A stretch of DNA of 64,000 nt from Candidatus Bathyarchaeota archaeon (GTDB lineage: Archaea; Thermoproteota; Bathyarchaeia; Bathyarchaeales; Bathycorpusculaceae). Position 1 is the first letter of the stretch. Every line of letters begins with the position of its first letter. The position numbers were made by a program, and so were the translations under genes. A model generated the notes under the pieces. That model ran no database searches. It saw nothing but the letters and a program-made list of their open reading frames with translations, and was not told where the DNA came from. The stretch is taken from the NCBI GenBank assembly GCA_963715865.1, contig OY970280.1:1662486-1726485 (forward strand), given 5' to 3'. This document shows positions 12,550-61,906 of this stretch, one piece after another.

Positions 12550-12658
12550 TGGTGCCGGGGGCGGGATTCGAGCCCGCGACTTCTGGGTATAAGGCGCTTG
12601 CCCCTATGACTCTCCAGATTATGAGTCTGGCGCCCTAGCCAGGCTGGGCTACCCCGGC
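12550..12658 (-). tRNA. tRNA-Met(CAT) with encoded CCA and a 31-nt intron (12581-12611) at non-canonical position 45/46
   Basis: GCCGGGG acceptor, anticodon arm CCAGA-CTCATAA-TCTGG, T-arm GCGGG-CTCGAAT-CCCGC; bulge-helix-bulge with central helix CTGG/CCAG; splicing restores variable loop AGGTC. Confidence 0.92.
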
Positions 12659-14828: not shown

Positions 14829-15983
14829 ATGACCACCCCAGACATAATTGAAAAAATTCTCGCGAAAAACCCAGAAGTTAGCCGAGAACAAATTCTCGAA
14901 AAATTGCGAGCTGAAAAATCCAGAACAGGCGGTCTACTCGGTGATGAAACGCTTCTGAGGTTAATTGCCGCTAAATACGGCGTTGAAGTGCAGCAAAACA
15001 CAATTCAAAACAACGGAAACTTATCGACAAGCCGTTTATTCGCTGGCTTAAACGATGTTACAGTAGCGGGTCGCTTAATTGCGGTTTTTCCAGCGCGAAC
15101 TTTCGAGGGAGAAAAATCTGGTAAATTCGCAACTTTAATGGTCGCAGATAACGATGGCATTCTGCGGGTGGTGCTGTGGAATGACAAGGCTGATTTGGTT
15201 GAAAAGGGCGAGATGAAAGTTGGACAGGCAGTTCGGCTGCTTCATGGGTACACGCGAGAGGATCATTATGGCAAAGTAGAGTTGCATCTTGGCGGCAAAA
15301 GCCAAATTGAAGTTGAGCCCCAAGAGAAAACAAGTGAATACTTAGCCTTCGATAAGTTTGCTACAAAAATAGGTTCTCTAAATAAAACGTCTGGGAATGT
15401 GCATCTTTCTGGCACTGTAAAAGCGGTTTTAGGCTTAACCAAGTTCACCCGAAGTGATCAAAGCGATGGAACAGTCATGCGATTCACTTTAGCGGATGAT
15501 TCTGGAGAAGTGACGGCGGTTGCTTGGAATGAAAAAGCCTTAGAGTTAGAAAAAACCCTCAAAGCGAACGCGTATTTGCAATTGGGTAACGCTAAAGTGA
15601 AAGAAGCCCAAAATGGCGGCATAGAAGTTCACGTTGACTTCACCAGTTTTGTTAATGTTCAAGCTGCCGCTTTGCAGTTGACGAAAATAGCAAGCTTAAC
15701 TGAGAACCAAAGCGCCAACGTTGAAGGCGTAGTTTCAACGGTTCCTGAAAGCAAAGAAGTAACCACAGCGAAAGGCGAAACCGTGAAGCTGACGGTTTTT
15801 GGGTTAAAAGACGACTCTGGCGCTGTTCAGGTTTCGGCTTGGCGGCAACATGCTGAAGCGCTTAATGGGTTAAAGGTTGGTGACAAGTTGCTTTTGGAAA
15901 ATGCTTATGTGAAAAAGGGGTTTGGGAATAAAATGGAGCTATCTACCCGAAGTGCAACGGTTGTCTCAGTTATGCCGCCTTGA
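14829..15983 (+). CDS. Replication protein A-like multi-OB-fold ssDNA-binding protein (start MTTPDII)
   Basis: Three OB repeats (ADNDGILRVVLWN, LADDSGEVTAVAWN, LKDDSGAVQVSAW). Confidence 0.85.
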   Translation: MTTPDIIEKILAKNPEVSREQILEKLRAEKSRTGGLLGDETLLRLIAAKYGVEVQQNTIQNNGNLSTSRLFAGLNDVTVAGRLIAVFPARTFEGEKSGKFATLMVADNDGILRVVLWNDKADLVEKGEMKVGQAVRLLHGYTREDHYGKVELHLGGKSQIEVEPQEKTSEYLAFDKFATKIGSLNKTSGNVHLSGTVKAVLGLTKFTRSDQSDGTVMRFTLADDSGEVTAVAWNEKALELEKTLKANAYLQLGNAKVKEAQNGGIEVHVDFTSFVNVQAAALQLTKIASLTENQSANVEGVVSTVPESKEVTTAKGETVKLTVFGLKDDSGAVQVSAWRQHAEALNGLKVGDKLLLENAYVKKGFGNKMELSTRSATVVSVMPP

Positions 15984-16995
15984 GTTTTGCCGCTATGGCG
16001 TTTGCCATGTCGCTGGTTGATGCTGAACCGCCTAAATCTGCCGTTCTCACCTTGCCTTCGTTTAGCACGCTTATCACTGCTTTTTCGATTTTAGCTGCGC
16101 CTGCTTTTTCGCCAAGGTAATCCAGCATCATTGAGCCTGCCATAATGGTGGCTATGGGATTAACCCTGTTCATACCCGTGTATTTGGGCGCTGAACCGTG
16201 GACAGGCTCAAACATGCCGTATGTTTCGCCGATGTTTGCTCCTGCCGCTAAGCCTAAACTTCCCGTAACCTGCGCCGCCTCATCCGAAAGTATGTCGCCG
16301 AAAAGGTTAGTTGTAACAATCACATCGTAGGCTTCGGGCTTTTTAATTAGTTGCATGGTTGCAGCATCAATGTGCAAGTCATCAACGGTCACGTCAGGAT
16401 ACTTTTGCTGGGCTTCTTTAACGGCGTCTTTGAAGATGCCATCGGTTATTCTTAGAATGTTGCCTTTGTGCACGTAGGTTAAGTGTTTTCTGCGCTGAGA
16501 AGCAAGCTTAAACGCGAAATTGGCTATTTTCAATGAAGCTTCCCTTGTGATTATTCTTAGGGCTATGCCGACGCCTGGAGCAAGGAGAGATTCTGCGCCC
16601 GAGTATAAGCCTTCTGTATTCTCGCGGACAACGACTAAGTCTATGTTTGGTTTTAAGGCTTCAACGCTTGGAAAGCTTCGGCATGGACGCACGTTTGCAT
16701 AGAGATTGAAAATTTTGCGGAGTGTCACGGCTACGCTTACTGGTGCACCTGGCTCTTCAGGCGTAGTCATTGGTCCTTTCAGGCAAGCGCTGGTTTGCTT
16801 TATCAGCTCTAGTGTTTCTTTGGGCAGGTTGGTGCCGTATTGGGCTATGCAGTGGTATCCTGCTTCGCCGTAAAGAAAGTTAAGTTTGAAATGTGATTTT
16901 TCTTGGATAGCTTGGAGGACTTTTACGGTTGCTTCTGTTACTTCTGGTCCGATGCCGTCGCCTTTAAGGACGGCTATGTTGTAAGTTTTAGTCAT
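15970..16995 (-). CDS. Isocitrate/isopropylmalate dehydrogenase family (LeuB-like)
   Basis: GDGIGPEV, VRENTEGLY, NLFGDILSD, EPVHGSAP, NPIA. Confidence 0.9.
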   Translation of the reverse strand: MTKTYNIAVLKGDGIGPEVTEATVKVLQAIQEKSHFKLNFLYGEAGYHCIAQYGTNLPKETLELIKQTSACLKGPMTTPEEPGAPVSVAVTLRKIFNLYANVRPCRSFPSVEALKPNIDLVVVRENTEGLYSGAESLLAPGVGIALRIITREASLKIANFAFKLASQRRKHLTYVHKGNILRITDGIFKDAVKEAQQKYPDVTVDDLHIDAATMQLIKKPEAYDVIVTTNLFGDILSDEAAQVTGSLGLAAGANIGETYGMFEPVHGSAPKYTGMNRVNPIATIMAGSMMLDYLGEKAGAAKIEKAVISVLNEGKVRTADLGGSASTSDMANAIAAKLKAA

Positions 16996-17082
16996 TTTGG
17001 TTGCCTTCTTGTTTCTGGTTTTGTAAATAGTGTTTTTGCTTATCAGCATTCCTGTTGACTTTTTCCTAAAAATGAAGTTTCA

Positions 17083-17593: not shown

Positions 17594-18951
17594 TTATGAA
17601 TTATAATTACTTATCCCTATAGTTTGGGACTTATTATCCATATTTTTGAAGCTTCCGAAGCGTTTAGGCTTCCTGTAGAAATGCATCGTAATTCCGTTGA
17701 ATGTAGCTTCATCATATTTTGTCCAGCCAGCCTTTCCTAAAGCACGAATCTCTTCAACTGTTGTTACAACGGTTTCCTCATAATCTTCCTCTTTGAACTC
17801 GATAGTATGCACATATTTCTGCGTGCTCTTCCACGACTTATGCCTCAGCAATCTTGCGATAACAACAGCATTCCCATTCGAATAGTACGCTATCATAGAG
17901 CCGCCCCAATGACGGAACGATTTAAAACTGATCTGTAGCAATGCAGGATTCTGGAATTTTGCGGCAGCCTTTACGACGAAGCGCTGCAAGGCATACATAA
18001 GCAGTCCGATAGGTCATTGGAAAAATCCGTTTGTTTTCCCTAGGCAAAGCATTCAACATGCAGGTCAAACGCATCGACAACTCGTATTTACCAGGGTAAT
18101 GGAACTTCACTGGATGATTAATACTGAACACATTATCCTTGAGGTCAATCCATTCAGCATCAAGAATCTCTGACGGATCAGCAAAAGTCTCTTTAAGGCA
18201 CAGCAGAAAAGTAGCCATACGCTTACTCGCAGCACTAATAAGCAAATCAAGGTCTTTCTCATCAGGCACAATGATAGTAGCTTCCCTCTGACGATACAGC
18301 GGACGCTGCCAAACAATCCCCTCCATCTGACAAAACGCATCATAAGCACACACCGCCAGCATTTTCATACTGTCACTCCAAGGCTCACCATTCTTCTTTT
18401 TCTGCTTAGCAATTACCATCTTCACATTTTCAGAGTCCAACAGGTCAGCGCCATCACCGACAAGATGCGTCAGAATATCAGGGTACGTTATATCTTCATC
18501 AAAACCATTACGCTCCAAGTACGCCATGAATTTTGTAATCAAGCCACGCACAGCTTCAGGTAACAGGTCCAGATGCTTCAGTTTTCTTCTTGTCTCCCGC
18601 AACAGTCTTTAATTCTGCTGCAGAGGTCAAATTTTTCGCTCCCAAAGCGCATATTTGGCGTTTAGAAGCTAAGGCACTGGACGTATTTAATGACCTTTCA
18701 GAACTTTCTTGTAACGGTGGTGACCCTTTAAGGGTCGGTCTCTCGCTAAAACGGAATCCGCAATCCCTGCAAAGCCAACGCTGAACACTAGATTTATCAC
18801 TCCTATAACGCAGGCCATCACGATAAACCTTCGTCACCTTAGGACTGCAACTGGGGCATAGGGGGCTGGCGCCATCACTAGCCAACTTGCCCAAACCAAC
18901 ACTGCCAAATACACGCTCTTGAGCAAGACCAACCATTCCCTCCCCAGCCAT
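17594..18951 (-). CDS. Tyrosine integrase with N-terminal IS1-like zinc ribbon, interrupted by two apparent +1 frameshifts (~18575 and ~17970)
   Basis: Three consecutive ORFs join as CPSC...QRWLCRDCGFRFS, core, then FKSFRHWGGS...LLRHKSWKSTQKY (H-x-x-R-like box, H, catalytic Y). Confidence 0.85.
17603..17616 (+). repeat. attL core ATAATTACTTATCC
   Basis: Identical to 57423-57436; lies inside the last codons of the integrase ORF. Confidence 0.75.
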
Positions 18952-19112
18952 CTTAACCCTCCGTAAATACGCGACCGTTCTCTTCAGCCAAATCCATCAA
19001 TTCTTTGCGTTTAGCAGCTTCCTTAAGGCGTCTATCACATGGTCCACAATAATTAACAAACCGAGAAACGACGTCACCGCATTCTCGGCAGTGATGATGC
19101 TCAGGGACGCCT

Positions 19113-19763
19113 TCAGCCAACAGTTTCACCTAACTCGCCTTTTGGACCTACAGAAGAATCCACGGTGACGGCGGCGCCTTCAGCGGCAGCTACTTCTTGA
19201 CCATCATAGGTGAAGCTGACAACTTCGAAAGTTCCAAACGAGCCCTTATGCTGAGGCCTATAATCCAGCAAACCCATCCGGACACCCGCATCTTCCAAAA
19301 TTTCTTTCAGCGTAGCCTCGATGCCTTCAGGCAGCCACTTAACATTATAGACAAGCCTAAACTTTGCACTCCATTGCAATAGTTTCGCTCTGCCTTTAAG
19401 AACCCGCTGCGACTGAATCACAACCGCCCGCTCATCAACCACGTACTGATCCGTACCCAAAGGAATCTTCTCAGGCTCCACACGCATCGTACCAGCAAGC
19501 AAACTCGAAAGCGAAACCCTATGAACCCTGTACTGCTTAGCCGTATTGATAAGCATGCTCTGCACGCATTCCTGAGGAATGTAAAGCTGGTTTTTGCCGT
19601 TGATCACTGCCATGTAAGCGCTGTTCTTTGCATCGTTCTCTGTACTATAGTTCTGCGTCTTCATTTTACTTTTACTTTTCAAACTTTCCGGATTCAACCG
19701 GTTCATTAGCAAGGGCGTTAAGCCCTTAATTTCAACATCTATTTTTTTAAAGTTTTGACTCAT
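19113..19763 (-). CDS. Virus-encoded RAMP/Cas7-like protein, candidate effector of the adjacent repeat array
   Basis: N-terminal IKGLTPLLM, YIPQECVQSML, WSAKFRL and glycine-rich C-terminal AGVRMGLLDYRPQHKGSFGTFEV, the pattern of RAMP/Cas7-group folds; no other cas genes nearby. Confidence 0.7.
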   Translation of the reverse strand: MSQNFKKIDVEIKGLTPLLMNRLNPESLKSKSKMKTQNYSTENDAKNSAYMAVINGKNQLYIPQECVQSMLINTAKQYRVHRVSLSSLLAGTMRVEPEKIPLGTDQYVVDERAVVIQSQRVLKGRAKLLQWSAKFRLVYNVKWLPEGIEATLKEILEDAGVRMGLLDYRPQHKGSFGTFEVVSFTYDGQEVAAAEGAAVTVDSSVGPKGELGETVG

Positions 19764-19768
19764 TTTTG

Positions 19769-20795
19769 TAACCTCACGTTACCATACCTGAGAGCACTGT
19801 AGCTAACGGCGCCCCGCCTTCCCTCACTAAACCAAAATAGCGGCTTACCATGCCTCACAATACATCGCATCACCAAGCCAGGCATCACTGAACTCAACCT
19901 AACTGGACACCGCAAAACATGACCTAACCGCGATGATACCAAGGAATACCACGCATTACGCGACAGGACAGTACCAAGCCAAACTTGACCCCGCCTTAAT
20001 AACGCCAAAGAACACTTCGCCTTGCTGTACCTCACCACTGCTAACCACAATGAAAGCAAAGATTGCAGCAACCGTGCCAAACCGCAACTCACAAAACCCC
20101 GCTTGACATTGCCAAACCTCAATAAAACCATGCCAAGCCTTGCATAACCGTACTTCACAGGACCAAACTTCGCCACGCCGTAGAGTGCCTCGCGACTCCA
20201 AGCCACGCAACGCCGTAATAACGCCAAACCATGCAAAACCATACCGTGCAGTACACCAACCCGCTCCACGATACCAAACAGGGCCTCTCCAAACCACGAT
20301 AACACTTTACCACACAAAACCAAGCCCCGCACCACAGATCCCCACGCAACGCAACAGGACCTCGCTAAGCCACAATAGCACCTAACCGTAGAGAACAAAG
20401 CACCACTTGACCCAACAGAACCGGACTCCACTCCGCTACACCATAATAAAAGCTTGGCTTGCCTTGCTTCACCCAACCGGACCGTTCCCTGCCATAATGA
20501 AAGCTTAGAGAAACTATCCTCGCAAAGCCGTACCTTACGATACCTAACCGGACAGGACAGAATAGTGCCATGCAATACTAAACCTCGCAACGCCTCAATA
20601 ATAGCAAACCTAGCAAACCTTACTTTACTCAACCTAGCAGTACAGGGCCTCACAAGACCTAGAAACACAAGACCAGACCTAAGAATACACTGCCGGGCAC
20701 CACTACACACCACAGGACCATACCTGACATCAATAGCGCCACACCTTACCTTAGAGGACCGGGCAACACCGCATCTTACCCCACGACACTTGACC
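19769..20795 (-). ncRNA. Array of ~178 pentamers (NGY-NN) in ~13 blocks split by GYTATT-like spacers; candidate guide-RNA array
   Basis: 5-nt periodicity seen directly (e.g. GGT-CA AGT-GT CGT-GG GGT-AA GAT-GC GGT-GT); separators GCTATTGA, GCTTTCATTAT, GTTATCGT, GTTATTAC, GTTATTAA, GCTATTTT; sits between a stop codon and the RAMP ATG. Confidence 0.8.
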
Positions 20796-21548
20796 CTAAA
20801 CATGAAAACGCAACCTCTCAAAATCCAAATGCGCCCGATTAACCAACTCTTTAATGACAGGATCATCCAGCGGAAAACGCCCCGACTCCGCCAGACTACA
20901 AAACAGCACCAAAGCGTTCTTCAGCTCCACAAGCTCACGGCCACTCAAACCAGGCTGAACCTTCCCATTCTTGGAATCCACATGAAACCGCTTGCCGCAT
21001 GGCGCCGTCAAAGTCACAATAGGCGCAGCAGACTCACGGTAAATCTCAGCAGCCGGAACATGCACAAGCGCCACGATATCTTTCACGTCAAATTTGAACT
21101 TTTTAAGCCGAGCAATGTTATCCTTAAGCTCCACGTCGCTGAAACCCTTGCCATGGCCACTATTAAGCCTCACCGCCTCAGCAAACAACTCAGCCTCACT
21201 AGAAAACGGCAACTCAGAACATTCCGCATACTCAACCTTGCGAAGCTTCCGAGAACTAAACCGATGAACACCATCAACAAGAATCTTCTGACCCTTGAAA
21301 ACGCCAACCTTCAAAGTTGGAAAAACACAACCCGCATCCAAAGCCCTGGCATAATTTTCAACAACCCTCTGATCAATCTCCTTACGCGGATAAAGACTCC
21401 AATCAAAAACCAGATCAGCAAGCTTCTCAATACGAACTGGCGCCCTATCCCAATCCTTAAACGCAAAACCAGCAGCTGGCTTAACCTCAACGCTCTTTTG
21501 CGGAGCAGGCGGCATATAAACAACTTTACCAGCAACAGGAGACTTCAA
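20796..21548 (-). CDS. ParB/Srx N-terminal-domain protein
   Basis: LYPRKEID, ILVDGVHRF, AVRLNSGHG. Confidence 0.8.
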   Translation of the reverse strand: MKSPVAGKVVYMPPAPQKSVEVKPAAGFAFKDWDRAPVRIEKLADLVFDWSLYPRKEIDQRVVENYARALDAGCVFPTLKVGVFKGQKILVDGVHRFSSRKLRKVEYAECSELPFSSEAELFAEAVRLNSGHGKGFSDVELKDNIARLKKFKFDVKDIVALVHVPAAEIYRESAAPIVTLTAPCGKRFHVDSKNGKVQPGLSGRELVELKNALVLFCSLAESGRFPLDDPVIKELVNRAHLDFERLRFHV

Positions 21549-21757
21549 CTAGACGCCTCCAGCTTTGGCTTTTTCAACGGTATAAAAACAACCGGGTGCT
21601 TATCCAACCGACTAAAAATACACCTGTAACCCTCAGCTTCAAGGGCAGTCTTCCAAGCAGCATCGAACTCTGGCTTCTGAATAACTAGGCACTCTCCATA
21701 CGGCGTCACATCTTTAGGCGGACCAAAACGCGACTTAAGCTCATCAACCGAAACCAT
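21545..21757 (-). CDS. Viral hypothetical protein
   Basis: Overlapping stop/start with the ParB-like gene, operon strand. Confidence 0.55.
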   Translation of the reverse strand: MVSVDELKSRFGPPKDVTPYGECLVIQKPEFDAAWKTALEAEGYRCIFSRLDKHPVVFIPLKKPKLEASS

Positions 21758-21933
21758 CTAAGCCGGAACCTCCAATGAGCCAAAAAATAAATCATGCCTC
21801 TTTTTTTTGAGAAGTTTAACTGTGTTCCTTAATGCTTTGTTGTCTTTGTGAAGCTGTGATATCAAGTTGCAGTTATCTTTGATGCTACTATTGATAATTG
21901 CCAAGTCTTTGCTGATTTGCTGCAATTCCTCAG

Positions 21934-22296
21934 TCAAACAGAAACCTCCAAAGGTTTTTTCGCAAATAAGACTTCATTCGGCATGTAGAGGCCAGCCGTT
22001 GCAGCAACAACCTTAGGCACCCCATCCTCATAATAGGAACTGCACGCGCTTTCGTTTACGCGGCGATCCCACCAACGCTTCTCATGAACCCTGTAAGGCC
22101 AACGCCTACAATCACGCAGCACAGCAATCCTGCTGCAAACCTCCAAGTAAATCTGCCTTAAACTAACCGGCTGCGAAGGCATACCCATCTTGCTCAGGAT
22201 ATCGCTTTTCTGCCTGTGCAAACTAAAGATCACTTCACGAATCAACTGCCTGAGAATCCGCAAGCTCCCGGCTTTCAGCAGGCCTACCCTGAGCAC
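21934..22296 (-). CDS. Viral hypothetical protein (possible winged helix)
   Basis: ORF on operon strand; SLRQIYLEV...RRVNE pattern. Confidence 0.45.
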   Translation of the reverse strand: MLRVGLLKAGSLRILRQLIREVIFSLHRQKSDILSKMGMPSQPVSLRQIYLEVCSRIAVLRDCRRWPYRVHEKRWWDRRVNESACSSYYEDGVPKVVAATAGLYMPNEVLFAKKPLEVSV

Positions 22297-22326
22297 GCCA
22301 ACCAGCCGCCTTATAGGTTTGCTCGC

Positions 22327-22557
22327 TCATTTCTCAGGTCCCTCTATGATTTTGTCTAGTTTCTTCTGAGCGTAAGCTTCAATCCTGACAGTAACATTAT
22401 GCCCTAACGGGTACTCCTGGTACAGTGCGGAACTCTCGCTCTTAATAGACAACTTCATTTTCGGGTCACTGCATTCCAGCGTAACCTTGAACACTGGCAA
22501 TTCAGCGGCGTTCTGGCTTTTCGTATGACTGCGTACAATCATGTCATATTCAGTCAA
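22327..22557 (-). CDS. Viral hypothetical protein
   Basis: Coupled to the upstream ORF. Confidence 0.6.
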   Translation of the reverse strand: MTEYDMIVRSHTKSQNAAELPVFKVTLECSDPKMKLSIKSESSALYQEYPLGHNVTVRIEAYAQKKLDKIIEGPEK

Positions 22558-23410
22558 GCTTCTTCACCTCTGTTTTTCTCGGTTTATTTTGTAAGCGATA
22601 GAACTCTCTGATTTTTTCAAAGATTACATTACGCAACTTGGCATCGACAGCATCGCGCTCAGGCTTCCACTTGGCATCGACAGCATCGAGCTCAGCGTTC
22701 CACTTGGCATAGACAGCATCGCGCTCAGGCTTCCACTTGGCATCGACAGCATCGCGCTCAGGCTTCCACTTGGCATCGACAGCATCGCGCTCAGGCTTCC
22801 ACTTGGCATAGACAGCATCGCGCTCAGCGTTCCACTTGGCATAGACAGCATCGCGCTCAGGCTTCCACTTGGCATCGACAGCATCGAGCTCAGCGTTCCA
22901 CTTGGCATAGACAGCATCGCGCTCAGCGTTCCACTTGGCATAGACAGCATCGCGCTCAGGCTTCCACTTGGCATAGACAGCATCGAGCTCAGCGTTCCAC
23001 TTGGCATAGACAGCATCGAGCTCAGGCTTCCACTTGGCATCGACAGCATCGAGCTCAGCGTTCCACTTGGCATAGACAGCATCGAGTTCAGCGTAATATC
23101 TCAACAAAAGCTCTTTTGAAATGCCGTTAGGATCTTGATTCTTTAGCAACCGCACAGATCGACAAACACATTTCTTGTTCTCATCACTCCAAGCCTCAAT
23201 TCCATAAGCCTCAGCGAAAAACACTTGACAATCAGAGTTAAGCCAGTCCCGTGGGTCCATCGTTAAATGAAAACCCCGACTGCACATCGACAAATTGCCT
23301 TTCACAATATATTTCTTGCCAAGCTTCCAGGTCTGATGACCACCGTTGTAGCTCTGCATGTTCCGCAGGACTTTGAAAAGAATCACAGGTTTTTCTTTTT
23401 TATCAGTCAT
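22550..23410 (-). CDS. Viral protein with N-terminal C..GFH domain and ~14 x 11-aa helical repeats
   Basis: GNLSMCSRGFHL domain followed by repeats DAV(Y/D)AKW(NA/KP)E(L/R). Confidence 0.75.
   Translation of the reverse strand: MTDKKEKPVILFKVLRNMQSYNGGHQTWKLGKKYIVKGNLSMCSRGFHLTMDPRDWLNSDCQVFFAEAYGIEAWSDENKKCVCRSVRLLKNQDPNGISKELLLRYYAELDAVYAKWNAELDAVDAKWKPELDAVYAKWNAELDAVYAKWKPERDAVYAKWNAERDAVYAKWNAELDAVDAKWKPERDAVYAKWNAERDAVYAKWKPERDAVDAKWKPERDAVDAKWKPERDAVYAKWNAELDAVDAKWKPERDAVDAKLRNVIFEKIREFYRLQNKPRKTEVKKLD
22637..23093. repeat. 33-bp tandem repeat, ~14 copies, coding
   Basis: Unit cttggcat(c/a)gacagcatcg(c/a)gctcag(gc/cg)ttcca seen directly. Confidence 0.95.
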
Positions 23411-36599: not shown

Positions 36600-38814
36600 T
36601 CACCATTCAGTTCCATCGATGATAGCCCTGTATTTTTCCACGTAGTTCATAGCCATGATTCTGCGGCTGAACTTCTCAGCGTTATGCCTGCACATCTTCG
36701 CTGAAATATGCAAATGATCCACAGCGTATGCCACAGCGTCCGCCATTGCTTCAGCGTCAGCGCAAACGACTCCGCCTTCCTTAACGGTTTCAGGCATGGC
36801 ACCATCCGCCAAAACAATCGCGGGCGTGCCACATGCCATCGCTTCGATAGGCACAAGCCCGAAGGGTTCACCCATCCGTGAAGGAACAAGCACGGCTTTC
36901 GCATTCTGCATTAACTCAACTTTAGTCGCGTTGTCCGCATCAACATATATTTTAACGCGGTCACCATCACAGCGATTCTTAATCTGCTGCAAATAATTTG
37001 GGTCTTGCACAAATGAGCCGCCCACCAAATCAATCGGCAAATTAAGCTTTTCAGCTACGGCTAAAGCAACATGCGGCTGTTTAAACACGTCAAAACGCCC
37101 AACAAACAAGAGCCTATTAGATTTCTGGCTTTTAAGCGGGTATTTGTTGAGGTCCACGCCATTATATACTCGCTGTGAAACCATCCCTTGTTGCTGGTAA
37201 ACTTTTTGCATCCAGTCAGATATCGCTATGAAATTCAGATGGAACGGCGGCTTCTGCTTTAGCCACCACTCAGGATTTAATCCGCCGTGGTGAGTATGGC
37301 AAACTTTCAATTCAGGATGCTTAGCTTTAGAAAGATACTCGAAGCCAAGCCAGTTATGACCGTGAATTATGTCAAACTGCGTGAGCTGCGCCTCTATTTT
37401 GCGGTGTGCATCACGTTCAGTAGCAACCCAATCATGCTCTACTCTGTCGAATGGTGCACCGATAGAAACAATGCTGCATCCAGGAACAGCGGAACCGTCA
37501 GGCGCGAACACGGTGACTTCGTGACCCATCAACGCGAGTTCTTCAGCGAGATCATAAACGATTTGTTCTAAGCCGCCGTAGTTTTGAGGCGGTACAGTGA
37601 ATATAGGTGTACTCAGTAACCCAATTTTCAGTTTTGCATCCTTAGATTTAGCCGTGTGGACATGTATGGGTGCTTCTGTTTTGGACAGAATCAAAATGCC
37701 TGACGCTTCAGTTTTGCTTAATGTTCCTTTGGGTACAAGTTCAGCGCAGAAAAAGCTCCAGCCGTCATAACTGAGGACTTCAACTTTCGACTCGTAATCA
37801 GATGGCATTGACTTATCAAGGAGTTGCTGGAAAGATTCAGGCGTATCCCAACGCACATGGTAGAGGTGCATGCCGCCGTCGCTTACATCAAATTCCTTGC
37901 AAGTTGGATTAGATTCTTTGCCTTCTGTGACGAGGTCTTTGCCTGTGCGCTTCATGTTTTCCTCCACAGTCTCGTAAGGACGCAGCACTGCAGCCCAATC
38001 TTTCGGGTTCGGCGTAGTAATCAAAACCCGTCGTGCAACGCGCAAAGCGCCTTTTATGAGGACGTCGGGGGTTTTGGAGTGCTCAACGATTTCGCCTAAA
38101 ACGGCGGTGTCAAACTGTTTATCTCGGAAGCCGCTTTCCTCTTCAGATATGAGTTTGTGCGCGTCTAACTTGTGGAATCTTGGCAGGTCATAAACATCCA
38201 TGTCCACGCTTGTCACCTGGTCTTCAAAGCCGCTGTGCAGAAATACTTGGCCTGTGTTGCAGCCGATGTTTATGATTGATTCGCCTTTGCGGATTTGCCT
38301 GAGGATCCATACGCTTCTGTCTTCCATTCGGTTAGCGGTTAATATCATGTCGGTGCTGCATTGGGGATGGCAGCGGACAACGATGCACATGAAGCCTAAT
38401 TTTTGGAATAGTTCAGCGAGGTATTTTGGGCTGAAACCGCATTTGTGTGCGCCGCTACTGTTTTCTTGTCCGCCGAACAGCATGCAACTGGAATCTTGTG
38501 TCCATTCGCCTTTCAACGTGATTTGCCGGCACTGTTCCTGCGTGTTTGCGGTGACGATTTCGACTTTGCCGTTTAATGAGAGGATGCGGTGTAACTCAGA
38601 AATGAACTGTTCAAGATTGCGCCAGCTTATGTGCTCGATTGCGTAAGCGCTATAAACGTAGTCGTAGGCGCCTGATTCTGAAGGGCAGGGGCTTCTCAAA
38701 ATCCGCGACTAAATCAACTGTGGGTAAGGCTCGGTTATCAACGTTCAACCCGTTACCAAGAAGCTTGGAAAACCTCGGATTCTCGCCGCCGCCAAGCTCT
38801 ATATTTTTCATCAT
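36600..38814 (-). CDS. Double class I SAM methyltransferase + GT4 glycosyltransferase fusion; apparent +1 frameshift near 38680
   Basis: Upstream frame gives MKNIELGGGENP (SAM motif), then INIGCNTG, then GT4 PPQNYGGLE...EPFGLVPIEAMACGTP. Confidence 0.8.
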
Positions 38815-48542: not shown

Positions 48543-48863
48543 TTAATAGTAAACGTCTTCATCTCTCACAATCCCGCAAACACAATGCGGATGCCAATTC
48601 ACCGCGAAAGTATCCTCATCAAGCCACTCGCCATACGGAAACATATCAAGCAAGTCATCCGGGTCCTCAAGCTCAAAGAAATCTCCAGACCTGCTATCGC
48701 AATCTTCACATAAATTAGGAGAAGGCGCCAACGCCTCTGTTACGTAACGCCAAACCGAATAGTGAATCGCAGGATTAACCACAGCGGCCTTAAATGCTGT
48801 GAAAGCGTGAAAAGCTGCCACAAGAGGCAAAACCTCATTAAGCTCTTGAACGGTAAGGCTCAA
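48543..48863 (-). CDS. Minor head protein (MuF/gp7 C-terminal-like)
   Basis: LCEDC...HPHCVC; follows the portal gene. Confidence 0.65.
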   Translation of the reverse strand: MSLTVQELNEVLPLVAAFHAFTAFKAAVVNPAIHYSVWRYVTEALAPSPNLCEDCDSRSGDFFELEDPDDLLDMFPYGEWLDEDTFAVNWHPHCVCGIVRDEDVYY

Positions 48864-50254
48864 GAGTTTTTCACTTCAGTAATCAAAAACGATTTTCCGT
48901 CTTGCTGAATCATCGCTTGCTTCTGCGTTCCTTTAGGCGCTGGAAGCATCTTAGGCTGTTGCTGATTTTGGATGGGAAGAGGCGTTTCAGGTTCAGGCGG
49001 CGTCTCTGGAAAACCAAGCTGCACTCTTGCCTCAGAAATCTGAACTATGCCAAGTTGCACTAAAGGAACCATGTAAGCCGCTTTTTCCTGCAAAGAAGCT
49101 TCCCAAATAGGCTTCCACTTAATCTCGGGAATTTCCGTACCCTCGCCAAACTGCATTTCAACAAGCTGCTTAAACAACTTCGTTTCCAAAACGTCGCTAA
49201 TAAGTTCCTGTATCATCCTGAGTCTAGTGACGTATTCTTTCATGACTGTATCGCTTGTGGCGCGGTTTGTGCCTTGAGATTCACCCATGAAGATTTTTGG
49301 CACGCCTAAGACGGCTTCGCGTTGCTTGTAGAGGTAGTCAAGCCAAAACTGCAAGTTAACCCCTGTCGTCAACGAAGGCACCACATCAACCGTAACGTCA
49401 CCGCGAACGAAAGTGTCTGAGGCGACTCTGCGGTTCTGGAACGTACTCATAAGCGATGTTAATTGCGCATCGCTGAAAGGTCTCTCTGGAGTGCCTGCTT
49501 TAATGACAAGCATTGGTTTCGTGTAAGTGTGAACTATCGTTGCGAAATCGTTTTCAAACTGGTCAAGCAAAGCTTGAACCTTCAAAAGCGGACGCAGCAG
49601 CGAGGTGCCATAGCTGAATTCGTACCACCATGATTTAGCGCCCCAGCAAAACTGAACCATGTCTTGCGCAATAAACGCGACAGGAGGAAAAGTCAAAAGC
49701 TGAATGTATCCGAAGACGTCGCCATACTCATTTCTGCGAACGCGAATATGCACGGGATCCAGCGGTTTTAGCCAACTGATCGCGCCTGTCTGTTCATCCT
49801 TGCACAGCTCCAAATAAGCATTGCCGAAAACCAAAATGTCCGTAGCTACAATGCGAAGAGTATGCAAAATATTCTGTTCATCAAGCCAATCCGTAAGCCA
49901 CTCGCGAACCGCATCATCCCCGCCATCCAACTCGAAACCATTGCTCATAGCCAAGTTAACGGTGACATCAATCGCCGCTTTAATGTATGGGCTAAAATTG
50001 TATTGGTCCTTGTATTTGGGCAGGTCCTCGATTGGCACGGCGCCCCAGACACGTTCCCAATAAGCCGTGTAGGGCGGAACCACGAAGCCTGCGCCACTGC
50101 CCTTAAGCATGAATTTGTTGACGTAGCCCATGAGGTTGCTGTCTTTTTCCCACGTGACAGGGATTTCTTCGCGGATTTGCTGCGTGCTAACTTGTGGCGG
50201 AACGTCACGTTGCGCGGTGAATGCGGATTTGTCTATGGTGCTTTTCAAAGGCAT
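48860..50254 (-). CDS. Portal protein
   Basis: VFGNAYLEL, LDPVHIRV, YGTSLLRP, LGVPKIFMG; follows TerL. Confidence 0.88.
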   Translation of the reverse strand: MPLKSTIDKSAFTAQRDVPPQVSTQQIREEIPVTWEKDSNLMGYVNKFMLKGSGAGFVVPPYTAYWERVWGAVPIEDLPKYKDQYNFSPYIKAAIDVTVNLAMSNGFELDGGDDAVREWLTDWLDEQNILHTLRIVATDILVFGNAYLELCKDEQTGAISWLKPLDPVHIRVRRNEYGDVFGYIQLLTFPPVAFIAQDMVQFCWGAKSWWYEFSYGTSLLRPLLKVQALLDQFENDFATIVHTYTKPMLVIKAGTPERPFSDAQLTSLMSTFQNRRVASDTFVRGDVTVDVVPSLTTGVNLQFWLDYLYKQREAVLGVPKIFMGESQGTNRATSDTVMKEYVTRLRMIQELISDVLETKLFKQLVEMQFGEGTEIPEIKWKPIWEASLQEKAAYMVPLVQLGIVQISEARVQLGFPETPPEPETPLPIQNQQQPKMLPAPKGTQKQAMIQQDGKSFLITEVKNS

Positions 50255-50473
50255 TTAAAAATCACTATCTCTAAAAACTAAGCCTCTTTCTTCTCGGCTT
50301 TTTCGTTTGTTACTATGATTTCTTCCCAAACCACGTTTTTAGTGATGTCCACGCCATCAACGTAAACATGTAAATCTGTTAGGTTACAATTCACAGTCAT
50401 GCCTAACGCTTTAACCTGCTTAGTTTTATCGCTTGCTGAAAATAACTCCTCTTTCAAGTTAAGTCACCATAAT

Positions 50474-51766
50474 TTATAACTCTCTTATGAACGCGGCGCC
50501 GACACCAGGCGGGGCTTGTCCTGTTTTAATCTGCCAAGCAGCCAAAGCTAATGTGATAACCGTATCATCATGCAGGCCTTCAGGCGCTCCGTATTGAATC
50601 AGGCCTGACGGCATAAGATTGTAAGTGAAAGATTCGAGTTCTGATTTTAAAACTGGAAACTGCTCATCTAAAGCGCTTGAGAACTCTTTTGTTGCTGGGT
50701 TGCCTGGGAACCAGATTTCGCCATTATCCAGCATAATGCTCAAGTTTTCTATAAGCGCTTTTTTGGTTGTGTTCGTAAGTTTATAACCGCTAACCCCGCT
50801 GTATTCACGCTGTAATTCGTCGTAGACAGGGTCGCCGACGCCTGTACTATCCACAAGTAACGGTGCATTTCCGAAGCGTCTGCAGAACGCAATTATTCTT
50901 TTCCGCTGGAAAGGCCAGTCTATTTGGTTGAAGCGTTCGTAGCCTACGACTTCGCCGTTCATGCGTAAGGCGATGTTTACGGTGAAATCCACAGTTTTGC
51001 CAAGGTCACTGCCAACCATAATGGACTCGGTAAAACTTGGGTTATATGGTTTGATGTCGTCTCGTATGCGGTCTGCGATATGTCGGAAGACTACGCCTTC
51101 GCCTTCCAGTTCTTCCGCGTAGATTTCTTGGCGCCTAAGCAACTCGGGCATGTCATTAGCGATTGCGTCAATGTTTGCTTTGGGTAGGAACCCGCCATTT
51201 TCAGTTGCGTTGTCGTAGCTGCTTCCACGCCAACTTTTATATTCTGTTTCAGATAGGTCAAACCCTTTCGCTAATATATAACTGAACCATGTTTTACCTT
51301 TTGGCGTACCAATAAACAAGACTGACCCATTGTAGTCCATGAGGCTTGGTTTTAACTCTGCTTCCCACCTGTTCGGTTTCAGCATAGGAGCCTCATCAAT
51401 CGTTAAGTGATGCAGCCCTGAGCCACGCAGACTATCTTCTCGGTCGGCGCTATGAAAGAAGCATTCGCTTCCATTTTTAATTCGGATATAACGAATAGTT
51501 TCGTTGCTTTCGAGTTGCTTAACTATTAAGCTATGTGGTGTAAGGTCGCGAACTTTCTTTGTTGCAGGAATCAGTTCTTTGTAGAGAGGCGCTACCCACC
51601 AAGTTAAACAGTTTGGGTTTTTGAGCATAAAGATAAGGTTTTTTATCCACGCTAACTCGGTTTTTCCCCATCTTCTTCCAGCTTCAACCGTTTGGTATCG
51701 GTGATTGTCATAATAAACTTCAAGTTGCTTTGGATGCATCCGAAATGGGATGTTGACTATTGTCAA
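50474..51766 (-). CDS. Terminase large subunit
   Basis: AGRRWGKT, LRGSGL...IDEA, IGTPKG, DLGKTVDF, HDDTVITLALA. Confidence 0.93.
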   Translation of the reverse strand: MTIVNIPFRMHPKQLEVYYDNHRYQTVEAGRRWGKTELAWIKNLIFMLKNPNCLTWWVAPLYKELIPATKKVRDLTPHSLIVKQLESNETIRYIRIKNGSECFFHSADREDSLRGSGLHHLTIDEAPMLKPNRWEAELKPSLMDYNGSVLFIGTPKGKTWFSYILAKGFDLSETEYKSWRGSSYDNATENGGFLPKANIDAIANDMPELLRRQEIYAEELEGEGVVFRHIADRIRDDIKPYNPSFTESIMVGSDLGKTVDFTVNIALRMNGEVVGYERFNQIDWPFQRKRIIAFCRRFGNAPLLVDSTGVGDPVYDELQREYSGVSGYKLTNTTKKALIENLSIMLDNGEIWFPGNPATKEFSSALDEQFPVLKSELESFTYNLMPSGLIQYGAPEGLHDDTVITLALAAWQIKTGQAPPGVGAAFIREL

Positions 51767-60197: not shown

Positions 60198-61826
60198 TTA
60201 TTCTGATGGTGCCGGGGAGTACTGGCTTAGGTAACCCTTGGAAATTTTAGGCTTACGAGGCTTCCAGGCGGCTAACCGTTCTTTAAGCTCCTTATCTGAC
60301 AGCTCAACTTTCAGTATTCTGTTGGGTATGTCGATGGTTATTTTGTCGCCGTTCTTTAGGGCAGCGATTGGTCCGCCGTCGAAAGCTTCAGGCGCAACGT
60401 GCCCAATGCATGGTCCACGGGTCGCACCAGAAAACCTGCCGTCTGTAATCAACGCTACGCTTTCGCTTAAGCCCATGCCTGCAATTGTGGCTGTGGGGAT
60501 TAGCATTTCAGGCATTCCTGGTCCGCCTTTTGGTCCTTCATAACGAATAACCACGACGTCGCCTGCTTTAACCTCATGCCGCTTCATTGATTCTTCAGCT
60601 TCGCGTTCTGAATCGTAAACTTTCGCTGGACCTTGATGCTTCATCATTTTAGGTGAGACTGCCGCCGCTTTCACGACTGCTCCTTGAGGCGCCAAATTGC
60701 CCTTGAGTATGGCGATGCCGCCTTCCTTGTGAACTGGCTTATCCAATGGGCGGATTACTTCAGCGTTTATTACTTTGGCTTCTGCAACGTTTTCGCCAAC
60801 TGTTTTACCCGTAACCGTTAACGCATCAAAATGCACGAATGGTTTAAGCTCCTTAATCAACGCAGGTAAACCGCCAGCGTTACCTAAATCTTCCATGTCA
60901 AAAGGTCCGTTTGGAACCATGCTGCAGAGGTGCGGAACTTTCCGTCCAATCTCATCGTAATTTGAGAGACTAAGCTTAGCTCCTGCTTCCTTGGCGATGG
61001 CTGAAAGGTGCAAAACCGTGTTTGTGGAGCCCCCAAGCGCCATGTCCACTGCAACTGCGTTGTCGAAGGCTTTCTGAGTCATAATCTGTGAGGGCTTGAT
61101 GTCTTTCTTGATGAGTTCAACGATTTTTTCTCCTGTCTCTTTGGCAATTCTTAGCTTTGCGGCGCCGTTCGCTAATGCTGTTGCGCAGTAGGGGAGCGAC
61201 ATGCCTAAGGCTTCGGTTACGCATGCCATGGTGTTTGCTGTGAACATGCCGTTGCATGAGCCGCAGCCGGGACAAGCTACGTTCTCCAGCATTGCGGATT
61301 CTTTCGCGGTCATTTTGCCGGCGAAGACTTTGCCGACTGCTTCAAAAACGTTGTTGACGCCGACTTTTTGTCCTTCCAGTATACCTGATGCCATTGGTCC
61401 GCCTGTGACGGATATAGCCGGCACATTCAGCCTTGCTGCTGCCATGAGCATGCCTGGCGTGACTTTGTCGCAGTTTGAAATCAGCACCATGCCGTCTAAT
61501 CGGTGGGCTTGCATCATGATTTCTACTGAATCAGCGATTAATTCGCGGCTTGGAAGTGAATACCGCATGCCTTCATGACCCATAGCTATGCCGTCGCATA
61601 CGGCTATGGTGTTAAATTCGAAGGGTGTTCCGCCAGCTTCAAGAATGCCTTCCTTCACCGCTTCGCCTAAGGTTCTTAGGTGAATGTGTCCAGGAACTAT
61701 TGACGTGTAACTATTCGCTATACCAATGAATGGTTTAGCTATGTCTTCGTCTGTTAAACCTAAACTTTTTAGCAGGGCTCTGTGTGGTGCCCGTTCAGTT
61801 CCCAGTTTTATCTCGTCACTTCTCAT
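60198..61826 (-). CDS. ilvD: Dihydroxy-acid dehydratase
   Basis: [42 protein letters not shown]. Confidence 0.96.
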
Positions 61827-61906
61827 TCTAATCAACCTCTGTGCTGCATAAGACACCAATAATTTTATATTTAAGGTTGACGCTCTGAAAAGAGATGTGA
61901 TTTAAA

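What the first reader, a model, noticed from the sequence alone, without database searches (positions are those of the whole stretch)
19941..20795. The NN dinucleotides spell conserved DNA-methyltransferase motifs when read as codon positions 1+2
Manual decode with scaffolds dropped and each NN taken as NNx. Block 20505-20594: GT GA TT AT AT AC TC CC CC TA AT AA AC TT GA TA TC AA = V D L I I T S P P Y I N T L D Y S (N4C/N6A motif IV). Block 20307-20371: L D P C C G S G G F L V (type I/IIG N6 MTase motif I). Block 20226-20295: L D P F M G G G T T (beta-class motif I). Block 19941-19995: G Q F F T P R N V I (HsdM/gamma-class motif X). Block 20383-20442: V G G P S C Q G F S T (C5 MTase motif IV; canonical PPC here PSC). 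Block 20738-20795: Q V G N A V P P (C5 motif X). Sub-block 20606-20679: L V Y L D P T Y W (near Dam-type DPPY). NN fixes an amino acid only to a pair (D/E, F/L, I/M, N/K, H/Q, C/W), and I chose the motif-matching member. Six clear hits to one enzyme class are very unlikely by chance. The base after NN does not act as the wobble base (it would give TAG inside SPPY). Inference: guides target restriction-modification MTase genes at their least mutable codons and ignore synonymous escape.
Basis: partly seen in the sequence, partly recalled or inferred. Interest (0 to 1): 0.98.

Follow-up and report, generated by a model that had tools for sequence, protein, structure and literature searches.

The report
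VIPR guide array aimed at methyltransferases
This stretch is the guide-RNA array of a virus-encoded VIPR system (a recently described relative of CRISPR), and its variable dinucleotides spell the conserved catalytic motifs of DNA methyltransferases while skipping the codon wobble base, so one provirus could recognise whole families of DNA-modification genes.

Summary
On the minus strand, window 19769-20795 is 203 tandem pentamers: a scaffold xGy (mostly GGY/TGY) followed by a variable NN. They fall into about 13 units, median 13 repeats across the family.

A fixed-wobble decode, with no choosing between amino acids, hits only DNA-methylase Pfam families. Out-of-phase, shuffled, swapped and reverse-complement decodes hit nothing. 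A gapped DNA pattern built from one motif finds 15 genomic sites where about 0.07 are expected. All 15 lie in frame in methyltransferase genes.

The array sits between a ParB/KorB-fold gene and a 216-aa protein with a Cas7/Csm3 (RAMP) fold. About 60 related metagenomic and proviral loci share this layout.

This is a VIPR system, described in two 2026 preprints. Vipr protomers hold each GGY, and the NN pair with double-stranded DNA while skipping every third base.

The mechanism is therefore known. Three things are absent from the preprints' main text:
- Targets are invariant motifs of several methyltransferase classes plus PAPS-reductase-like enzymes.
- All recognisable guides have sense polarity.
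- The array lies in a stop-free frame, translationally coupled to its neighbours, whose protein sequence is not under selection.

No expression or binding data exist for this locus.

The parts
20796..21548 (-). vap-like accessory gene (250 aa) with a ParB/Noc/KorB fold and a DGxHR motif. Its stop codon is at 20796-20798.
   Evidence: PHROG phrog_1033, ParB-like, E 3.4e-8. AF2 model pLDDT 84.5. Foldseek top hits are Noc, ParB and KorB, E 2e-7 to 1e-5, probability 1.0. 89 homologues, all without a functional name.
19769..20795 (-). vrRNA array: 203 pentamers of scaffold xGy plus variable NN. About 13 units are separated by degenerate-scaffold boundaries (consensus G-Y-K-Y-TAT-T-R), most adding one base so that the pentamer phase advances by 1.
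   Evidence: It is the only such tract in the window. The same array type lies between the same two genes in about 60 related loci.
20731..20795 (-). Unit 1: Q V G N A V P P ..., which is C5-methyltransferase motif X.
   Evidence: Decode. The qiGkAVPP family recurs in many arrays.
20615..20729 (-). Unit 2: Q I P G V G P ... L V Y L D P T Y W. The second half resembles DPPY (motif IV, Dam/beta type). The first half is unassigned.
   Evidence: Canonical ePPY guides occur 34 times in related arrays.
20500..20599 (-). Unit 3: D V D L I I T S P P Y I N T L D Y S K, which is N4/N6 methyltransferase motif IV.
   Evidence: An 11-codon core pattern finds a methyltransferase gene on an IMG/VR viral contig. 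NN match to that gene is 24/24 over the 12-codon core and 31/40 over the 20 repeats.
20444..20498 (-). Unit 4: I (S/R) T P (W/C) (D/E) K K K, target unassigned.
20373..20442 (-). Unit 5: V G G P S C Q G F S T, which is C5-methyltransferase motif IV. It has PSC where related arrays have PPC.
   Evidence: GGPPcqG occurs 30 times and GGPPcqP 13 times in related arrays.
20297..20371 (-). Unit 6: L D P C C G S G G F L V, the AdoMet-binding motif I of gamma-class / HsdM / type IIG enzymes.
   Evidence: Pfam N6_Mtase aligns to this stretch of the fixed-wobble decode.
20216..20295 (-). Unit 7: L D P F M G G G T T, motif I of beta-class N6/N4 methyltransferases.
   Evidence: N6_N4_Mtase profile positions 183-199 are hit by the equivalent guides of related arrays.
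20120..20214 (-). Unit 8: V V L V D T T V E F P E T Y, a motif of PAPS-reductase-like (PP-loop) enzymes, not of a methyltransferase.
   Evidence: Present in 40 of 56 distinct arrays. PAPS_reduct is a weak Pfam hit, E 0.11, on the decode. A natural PAPS_reduct protein in L010 (E 2.6e-27) carries VLLVDTTVF.
20053..20118 (-). Unit 9: L N Q G L E A L T W ..., unassigned.
19997..20051 (-). Unit 10: V Y V E T K D V ..., unassigned.
19936..19995 (-). Unit 11: G Q F F T P R N V I, which matches the conserved HsdM / gamma-class N6 methyltransferase motif as I recall it (not tested here).
   Evidence: Recurs in 9 related arrays.
19835..19934 (-). Unit 12: A Y Q F G P Y W S E L L ..., unassigned.
   Evidence: Related YGPY/YGPF guides are listed.
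19769..19833 (-). Unit 13: L E K G A Y T A ..., unassigned. It runs into the ribosome-binding region of vipr.
19760..20866 (-). Stop-free reading frame spanning the whole array. A conserved ATG at 20803 lies 5 nt before the vap stop. The frame ends in ATGA on the vipr start codon.
   Evidence: 0 of 5000 scaffold shuffles were stop-free in 8 of 10 arrays, and P<=0.0006 in the other two. y is never T where in-frame yNN would be a stop, 0/151. The ATG position is conserved in 16/17 loci. There is no excess of substitutions at codon position 3. No Pfam or PHROG hit.
19113..19763 (-). vipr: 216-aa RAMP-fold protein with an invariant D167 and R169 and a nearly invariant Y168 in the predicted G-loop.
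   Evidence: phrog_4652. 251 homologues. AF2 pLDDT 76, pTM 0.71. The Foldseek top 50 are almost all Cas7-type backbone subunits of class 1 effectors: Csm3, type IV-A3, Cas7-11/gRAMP, type VII. hhalign probability 97.9%, E 4e-13, to the LESphi2 protein adjacent to GGC-NN repeat tracts.

Best explanation
The region is the vrRNA array of a VIPR (Viral Interference Programmable Repeat) system carried by a tailed provirus, probably of a Bathyarchaeia archaeon. The operon reads vap (ParB/KorB-like), then array, then vipr (RAMP) on the minus strand.

Inferred by homology to the published type II systems: the transcript is cut into units of about 9-20 pentamers. One Vipr protomer binds each xGy scaffold. 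The exposed NN pairs line up to pair with one strand of double-stranded DNA, skipping every third target base, and the bound complex blocks transcription. The ParB/KorB-like Vap may assist.

Shown here by sequence analysis: the NN strings are same-sense copies of codon positions 1+2 of the most conserved motifs of DNA methyltransferases.
- C5 motifs IV, VIII and X.
- N6/N4 motif IV variants SPPY, DPPY and NPPF.
- Motif I variants DPCCGxGGFL and DPFxGSGTT.
- The HsdM-type GQFFTPR.
- PAPS-reductase-like PP-loop enzymes (SGGKDST, DTTxEFPET).

Inferred function: a built-in, synonymous-mutation-proof set of family-level probes. It would let the provirus silence DNA-modification genes of incoming or co-resident mobile elements, and possibly cellular R-M modules.

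The array is additionally kept free of stop codons in one frame and is translationally coupled to vap and vipr. This probably lets ribosomes pass from vap to vipr. The encoded peptide itself is not under selection.
For: Anatomy:
- 5-nt periodicity and decode.
- Unit size has median 13 and quartiles 9-15, against the published 9-16 repeats.

Protein partners:
- Cas7/Csm3-like fold of the downstream protein.
- Its homology to a phage protein flanked by GGC-NN repeat tracts of the published vrRNA form.
- A D-Y-R G-loop motif resembling the published D177-W178-R179.
- ParB/KorB fold of the upstream protein.

Conservation: the same vap-array-vipr order in 5 IMG/VR loci and about 55 metagenome loci.

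Code:
- Substitution rates follow the pentamer position (x 0.18-0.32, G 0.08-0.14, y 0.29-0.31, N1 0.16-0.24, N2 0.14-0.16), not the codon position of the ORF.
- Ser, Leu and Arg codon families alternate at fixed motif positions.
- Fixed-wobble decodes hit methyltransferase Pfam families only in the correct phase and polarity.
- 1-skip patterns hit methyltransferase genes in frame: 15 where 0.07 are expected in genomes, 2 in viruses. The 2-skip and shuffled patterns hit none.

Mechanism: taken from the VIPR preprints.

Proviral context: portal, terminase and an integrase fragment between leuB-like and ilvD genes.
Against: - There is no RNA, binding or repression evidence for this locus. No RNA run holds it.
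- The scaffold is looser than the published GGY: the first base is G in only about half of the repeats.
- There is no structured 3' tail like that of type II vrRNAs, so processing and filament capping are unknown.
- Conserved-motif guides match any single natural gene well only over the 8-12 codon core. One example gives 31/40 NN over the whole unit, just under the 80% criterion the preprint used.
- About half of the window's units have no assigned target.
- Exact 1-skip scans for two of the commonest unassigned motifs found nothing real.
- The preprints' supplementary data could not be read, so I cannot say which VIPR type this is or whether methyltransferase targets are already tabulated there.
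Confidence: 0.82

Rival explanations
1. The tract is simply a protein-coding gene: the 368-aa ORF 19760-20866 encodes a pentapeptide-periodic, Gly/Cys/Arg/Val-rich protein that is the functional product. On this view the methyltransferase decode is incidental.
For: - One frame is stop-free in most related arrays and this is highly non-random.
- The start overlaps the vap stop and the end overlaps the vipr start.
- Each guide family keeps the same frame across loci.
Against: - Substitutions show no third-codon-position excess. They follow the 5-nt scaffold/NN pattern instead.
- No Pfam or PHROG family matches.
- The frame is broken into 2-3 overlapping open segments in many loci and is absent in the distant clade.
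- The methyltransferase decode is far beyond chance.
- Translation through the array and a guide function are not mutually exclusive.
Confidence: 0.05
2. The RNAs act as antisense or decoy regulators at the RNA level (pairing with methyltransferase mRNAs or titrating a factor) rather than by binding DNA.
For: The structural preprint shows that Vipr-vrRNA can also form a duplex with single-stranded RNA.
Against: - All recognisable guides have the same polarity as the coding strand. Forward decodes give 23 Pfam family hits and reverse-complement decodes give 0. A minus-strand transcript therefore cannot pair with the mRNAs.
- RNA targets gave incomplete filaments and no triplex in the preprint.
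- Transcription of the opposite strand cannot be excluded but has no support, and the stop-free frame is on the sense strand.
Confidence: 0.06
3. It is a VIPR array, but the methyltransferase-like strings are not targets of selection. On this view they reflect guides once acquired against one particular competitor's genes and now drifting.
For: Published VIPR guides target specific genes of satellites and prophages. Some units here are unassigned.
Against: - The guides cover only the invariant motifs, not the flanking gene sequence.
- They come from at least five different methyltransferase Pfam families that never co-occur in one protein.
- They are present as sets of motif variants: GGPPCQG/P, SPPY/DPPY/NPPF, DPFxGSGTT with different x.
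- They are conserved across loci whose Vipr proteins are only 70-80% identical.
Confidence: 0.07

Closest known systems
VIPR systems (Vipr + vrRNA; bioRxiv 10.64898/2026.04.26.720920 and 10.64898/2026.04.26.720927), characterised type II examples from Escherichia phage SUSP1 and a Pseudomonas fulva prophage
   Same: - A small RAMP-fold protein next to tandem pentanucleotide repeats with a conserved G-rich scaffold and hypervariable NN.
- Units of about 9-16 repeats.
- NN match coding DNA with a 1-nt skip that falls on the wobble position.
- A DNA-interacting accessory gene.
- A (pro)viral location.
- No self-target found, although only this 64-kb window could be checked.
   Different: - The scaffold is relaxed to (G/T/A)G(T/C).
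- There is no long structured or pseudoknot tail. Units abut through a short degenerate 'TAT' repeat, usually with a +1 phase shift. This may correspond to the 'staggered arrays' the preprint mentions.
- The array lies between vap and vipr inside a stop-free, translationally coupled frame instead of in intergenic DNA.
- Vap has a ParB/KorB fold.
- Guides are all sense-polarity.
- Guides copy invariant motifs of enzyme superfamilies rather than particular genes of a competitor.
Class 1 CRISPR-Cas backbone filaments (Cas7: Csm3/Cmr4 of type III, Csf2 of type IV, Cas7-11, type VII)
   Same: The fold of the protein (Foldseek probability 1.0, TM 0.40-0.48). One protomer per RNA repeat, with a thumb that interrupts the guide-target duplex periodically.
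   Different: - 5-nt rather than 6-nt period.
- 2 of 5 guide bases pair, instead of 5 of 6.
- The guide and target have unequal periods (5 and 3).
- No CRISPR repeats or spacers.
- No other Cas gene was recognised among the neighbouring ORFs I scanned.
KorB / ParB / Noc CTP-dependent DNA clamps
   Same: The Vap model matches their N-terminal ParB/Srx domain plus the helical DNA-binding region. It carries the DGxHR motif.
   Different: No sequence-level match to Pfam, NCBIfam or PDB. CTP binding, any parS-like site and clamp function are untested. It is encoded as a VIPR accessory gene.

Membership tests
VIPR | A Vipr protein: a small (~20 kDa) single-RRM RAMP with a G-loop and a thumb, encoded next to the RNA. 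| tested here: met
   216 aa. AF2 pLDDT 76. The Foldseek top 50 are almost all Cas7-type subunits. hhalign probability 97.9% to the LESphi2 protein that flanks GGC-NN repeat tracts of the published vrRNA form.
VIPR | G-loop residues that read the scaffold (D177, W178, R179 in SUSP1 Vipr). | tested here: inconclusive
   D167 and R169 are invariant and Y168 nearly so, near the C-terminus. The motif is shared with the LESphi2 homologue as DYRP. No alignment to SUSP1 Vipr itself was possible.
VIPR | vrRNA made of tandem pentamers with a conserved GGY (or related) scaffold alternating with variable NN, 9-16 per RNA. | tested here: met
   203 pentamers, 160 NGY and 85 GGY. G2 is the least variable position and NN are conserved within guide families. 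Units have median 13 repeats.
VIPR | 1-nt skip rule: NN strings match natural DNA with one unread base between pairs, falling on the wobble position. | tested here: met
   1-skip pattern: 15 genomic and 2 viral exact hits, all in frame. 2-skip: 0. Shuffled: 0. The 0- and 3-skip versions were not scanned.
VIPR | vrRNAs are expressed, processed, and co-purify with Vipr; the complex binds dsDNA and represses transcription. | not testable with these tools
   No RNA run holds the sequence.
VIPR | An accessory vap gene with a DNA-interacting function. | tested here: met
   ParB/Noc/KorB fold. The preprint's main text does not mention ParB, so correspondence to vap1-6 is unknown.
VIPR type II (SUSP1 / P. 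fulva clade) | An invariant structured 3' tail (pseudoknot) after each repeat tract; vrRNAs lie in intergenic DNA. | tested here: not met
   Units are separated only by about 10 nt (G-Y-K-Y-TAT-T-R) and lie in a stop-free frame. LESphi2, by contrast, has longer non-repeat stretches after each tract.
CRISPR-Cas | An array of identical direct repeats (about 24-48 nt) separated by unique spacers, plus other cas genes. | tested here: not met
   Tandem Repeats Finder reports no repeat array in 18000-23000 other than an unrelated 33-nt coding repeat. The family scans of neighbouring ORFs show no other Cas protein.
Ordinary protein-coding gene / pentapeptide-repeat protein | Purifying selection on the amino-acid sequence, seen as an excess of substitutions at codon position 3. 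| tested here: not met
   Rates at codon positions 1/2/3 are flat or reversed within each pentamer position.

The most novel reading that the evidence does not exclude
A provirus uses the wobble-skipping VIPR code for more than following one enemy gene through synonymous mutation. It recognises whole protein superfamilies at the DNA level. The array would be a hard-wired library of 'degenerate probes' for the catalytic and AdoMet-binding motifs of every major DNA-methyltransferase class, plus PAPS-reductase-like modification enzymes. That would give species-independent silencing of epigenetic self-marking genes in rival elements or R-M modules. In this clade the guide array is also read through by ribosomes (dual use as guide precursor and as a coupling ORF), and all guides are oriented to pair with the template strand.
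Probability: 0.45. Interest if true: 0.8.

Novelty: new variant of a known kind. Interest (0 to 1): 0.62.

Why it matters
The noncontiguous VIPR code was published in 2026, so the mechanism itself is not new.

This clade shows what the skipped wobble base makes possible. A nucleic-acid guide can address a protein motif, and therefore a whole enzyme family across phyla, instead of one gene. If the guides are active, this would be a natural RNA-guided system aimed at DNA-modification enzymes as a class. That bears on virus-virus and virus-R-M conflict in archaea.

It also suggests a design principle for family-level programmable repression.

The stop-free, translationally coupled array means gene callers will annotate such arrays as hypothetical proteins, and intergenic-RNA searches will miss them.

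Tried and rejected
- Tandem Repeats Finder did not report the array; the units are too divergent.
- blastn of the locus against the phage and plasmid collections found nothing.
- A scan of the 64-kb window for 1-skip matches to its own guides found only chance-level hits, so there is no self-target and no methyltransferase gene with these motifs in the window.
- A scan of all fetched loci gave one real hit: a PAPS-reductase-like gene in L010 matched 19/20 by a guide from L041.
- Exact 1-skip scans of IMG/VR for the unassigned motifs V-E-T-T-I-E-F-P-E-T and T-S-L-F-T-C-A-C-K found no hit and one spurious hit outside any real ORF.
- A regex search of the fetched loci for natural proteins carrying two or more unassigned motifs found none.
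- I tested whether the first scaffold base acts as the wobble and rejected it (TAG inside SPPY; GAG where Asp is required).
- I considered TRAP-, CsrA- and Hfq-type protein-binding repeats, G-quadruplex tracts and quintuplet decoding. I dropped them once the RAMP neighbour and the VIPR literature were found.
- The Vap sequence has no PDB, Pfam or NCBIfam match. Only the fold search identified it.
- No RNA-seq run holds the region. DNA runs from peat and wetland metagenomes hold only 11% of its words.
- The preprint's supplementary tables are not available as text.
Full report
**What is in the sequence.** Between 19769 and 20795 the minus strand is G/T-rich and has a strict 5-nt period.

- Each pentamer is a scaffold xGy followed by two variable bases. 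In the window x is G 51%, T 30%, A 14%; the middle base is G 82%; y is T 67%, C 29%.
- There are 203 pentamers in about 13 units.
- Units are separated by a degenerate repeat, consensus G-Y-K-Y-TAT-T-R. It usually carries one extra base, so the pentamer phase advances by one at each boundary.
- Across the family, units have a median of 13 repeats, quartiles 9-15.
- No other such tract exists in the window.

- With NNC, the window's 203-residue pseudo-protein hits only N6_Mtase and N6_N4_Mtase in Pfam. Two out-of-phase dinucleotide choices, two shuffles, one N1/N2 swap and the reverse-complement reading give nothing.
- The same fixed decode of five related arrays hits N6_Mtase (E 4e-5 and 1e-4, above Pfam's gathering score), Eco57I, N6_N4_Mtase, DNA_methylase, MethyltransfD12, MmeI_Mtase and, weakly, PAPS_reduct.
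- The reverse-complement decodes of those five arrays give no hit in ten sequences.

The gapped pattern for D-L-I-I-T-S-P-P-Y-W-N (22 specified bases) has 15 exact matches in the 596-Gb genome collection. I estimate about 0.07 by chance. All 15 are in frame inside methyltransferase-like ORFs from many phyla. In the viral collection it finds two contigs carrying the same 382-codon open frame encoding a beta-class methyltransferase. The 2-nt-skip version and a shuffled order find none.

The window's own SPPY unit matches a methyltransferase gene on an IMG/VR viral contig at 24/24 NN bases over the 12-codon core and 31/40 over the 20 repeats.

Arrays also alternate between the two codon families of Ser, Leu and Arg at the same motif position. 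Ser of PCQxFS is TC 47 / AG 7, and Leu before IITSPPY is CT 17 / TT 10. Only the genetic code makes these dinucleotides equivalent.

**Surroundings.** The array lies in a tight minus-strand operon.
- *Upstream gene, 20796-21548.* It encodes a 250-aa protein with a weak PHROG match to ParB-like proteins. Its AF2 model (pLDDT 84.5) matches Noc, ParB and KorB.
- *Downstream gene, 19113-19763.* It encodes a 216-aa protein (phrog_4652, no Pfam). Its AF2 model (pLDDT 76, pTM 0.71) matches Cas7-type RAMP backbone subunits in nearly all of the top 50 PDB hits: Csm3, type IV-A3, Cas7-11/gRAMP and type VII, at probability 1.0 and TM 0.40-0.48.
- *Host and provirus.* The locus sits at one end of a tailed provirus (integrase fragment, portal, terminase) inserted between leuB-like and ilvD genes. 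A member of the same protein cluster is annotated from a Candidatus Bathyarchaeia MAG. The window carries a 106-nt tRNA, long enough to contain an intron, which ARAGORN did not report. An archaeal host is therefore likely.

**Related loci.** The RAMP protein has 251 homologues in metagenomes.
- Five IMG/VR loci and 80 metagenome loci were fetched.
- Wherever enough upstream DNA is present and the protein is at least about 68% identical, the same kind of array lies between the same two genes.
- The arrays share a vocabulary of guide families. Recognisable ones include QxGNAVPP, xGVPQxRxR, GGPPCQ(G/P)FS, DLIITSPPYWN, IYxDPPY, LTNPPFG, DPCCG(T/S)GGFL, LDPFxGSGTT and GQFFTPR. About ten recurrent families are unassigned.
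- Two of the commonest previously unassigned families are motifs of PAPS-reductase-like PP-loop enzymes: (S)GGKDST and V-x-V-D-T-T-x-E-F-P-E-T. A natural PF01507 gene in locus L010 (E 2.6e-27) is matched 19/20 by a guide from another virus, L041.
- A more distant clade (58-63% identity) has cleaner GGY arrays with TTC boundaries and other content.

**Identification.** A literature search found two 2026 preprints describing VIPR systems.
- Vipr is a roughly 20-kDa RAMP that the authors propose predates CRISPR RAMPs.
- vrRNAs consist of 9-16 YNNGG repeats.
- One protomer sequesters each GGY.
- The NN pair with double-stranded DNA with a 1-nt skip that coincides with the wobble position, forming an R-loop triplex and silencing transcription.
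- Accessory vap genes interact with DNA.
- Seven types exist, including staggered arrays and relaxed scaffolds such as YNNNG.

The present locus meets each defining feature that can be tested by computation. In addition, its RAMP is homologous (tblastn E 4e-10; hhalign probability 97.9%) to a hypothetical protein of Pseudomonas phage LESphi2. That protein sits directly after GGC-NN repeat tracts, each followed by a longer non-repeat stretch. The conserved D-Y-R near the C-terminus resembles the published G-loop D177-W178-R179. I could not align it to SUSP1 Vipr.

**How it most likely works.**
- *Shown here:* the anatomy, the protein folds, the conservation, and the meaning of the NN.
- *Taken from the preprints by homology:* filament assembly, DNA pairing with the skip, and repression.
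- *Inferred:* the physiological targets are DNA-modification genes of competing elements and/or R-M modules.

The guides all have coding-strand polarity, so a minus-strand transcript would pair with the template DNA strand and cannot pair with the mRNA. Variability is highest at x and y, lowest at the central G and at N2, and intermediate at N1. This is what is expected if the guides track conservative amino-acid variation such as I/V/L in their targets.

**A feature not in the preprints' main text.** One frame on the guide strand is free of stop codons across the whole array.
- 24 of 61 arrays have 0 stops in one frame, against 5-23 in each of the other two frames. Most of the rest are tiled by two or three overlapping open segments.
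- Shuffling scaffolds among pentamers gave no stop-free frame in 5000 trials in 8 of 10 arrays, and P<=0.0006 in the other two.
- Where yNN is an in-frame codon and NN is AA, AG or GA, y is never T (0 of 151). In the other two modes T is as common as or commoner than C.
- An ATG lies 5 nt before the vap stop in 16 of 17 loci, and the frame ends at or just before the vipr start.
- Substitution rates show no third-position excess, and the product matches no family. Ribosome passage appears to be selected, not the peptide.
- The property is absent in the distant clade. The LESphi2 region has 1-4 stops in every frame over 472 nt.

**Limits.**
- There are no expression or binding data.
- Roughly half of the window's units have no assigned target.
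- The preprints' supplementary data are unavailable, so the VIPR type and any prior listing of methyltransferase targets cannot be checked.
- The chance expectation for the pattern scans is my own arithmetic from collection size, not a tool output.

**Verdict.**
- The locus is a new variant within VIPR: motif-level, sense-only guides against DNA-modification enzyme families; a translated, tail-less array; and a ParB/KorB-like Vap.

Noticed in passing
window 19760-20866 (-), and arrays in L001-L069: The guide array is embedded in a stop-free frame whose ATG overlaps the vap stop and whose end overlaps the vipr start. Stops are avoided by switching the scaffold y from T to C. The encoded peptide shows no sign of selection.
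   Followed up: yes
window 20120-20214 (-); L010:4477-5262: Some guides copy motifs of PAPS-reductase-like PP-loop enzymes (SGGKDST, DTTxEFPET), not of methyltransferases. One related virus (L010) encodes such an enzyme, and it is matched 19/20 by a guide of another virus (L041).
   Followed up: partly
arrays of window, L015, L021, L033, L044, L051: All recognisable guides have coding-strand polarity. Reverse-complement decodes give no Pfam hit. The VIPR preprint reports natural targets on both strands.
   Followed up: partly
L072-L086 (e.g. L079:~2470-2975): Vipr homologues of 58-63% identity carry cleaner GGY/NN arrays with in-phase TTC boundaries about every 14-16 repeats. Their decodes have no recognisable methyltransferase motifs, and mostly no frame is stop-free.
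   Followed up: partly
L104:2540-2960 (Pseudomonas phage vB_Pae_LESphi2, OQ594955.1): Three GGC-NN repeat tracts, each followed by a non-repeat stretch, lie between a 'sigma factor' gene and hypothetical protein P21_9. P21_9 is a Vipr homologue and lies beside the CI/Cro switch. The record annotates none of this as an RNA.
   Followed up: partly
window 22636-23000+ (-), inside ORF 22550-23410: A 33-nt (11-aa) tandem repeat, 11 or more copies at 92% identity, lies inside a DUF7666-containing, coiled-coil-like ORF two genes upstream of vap.
   Followed up: no
window 12553-12658 (-): A 106-nt tRNA found by Rfam but not by ARAGORN. Its length suggests an intron, which fits an archaeal host.
   Followed up: no
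window 36600-38699 (-): A 699-aa fusion of class I methyltransferase domains with a family 4 glycosyltransferase, including Pfam 'GT4-conflict', inside the provirus.
   Followed up: no
window 17594-17998 (-), 48860-51766 (-): Integrase-like fragment, portal and terminase. The provirus spans roughly 17.5-58 kb between leuB-like (15970-17049) and ilvD (60198-61859) genes, and the VIPR operon sits at its integrase end.
   Followed up: partly
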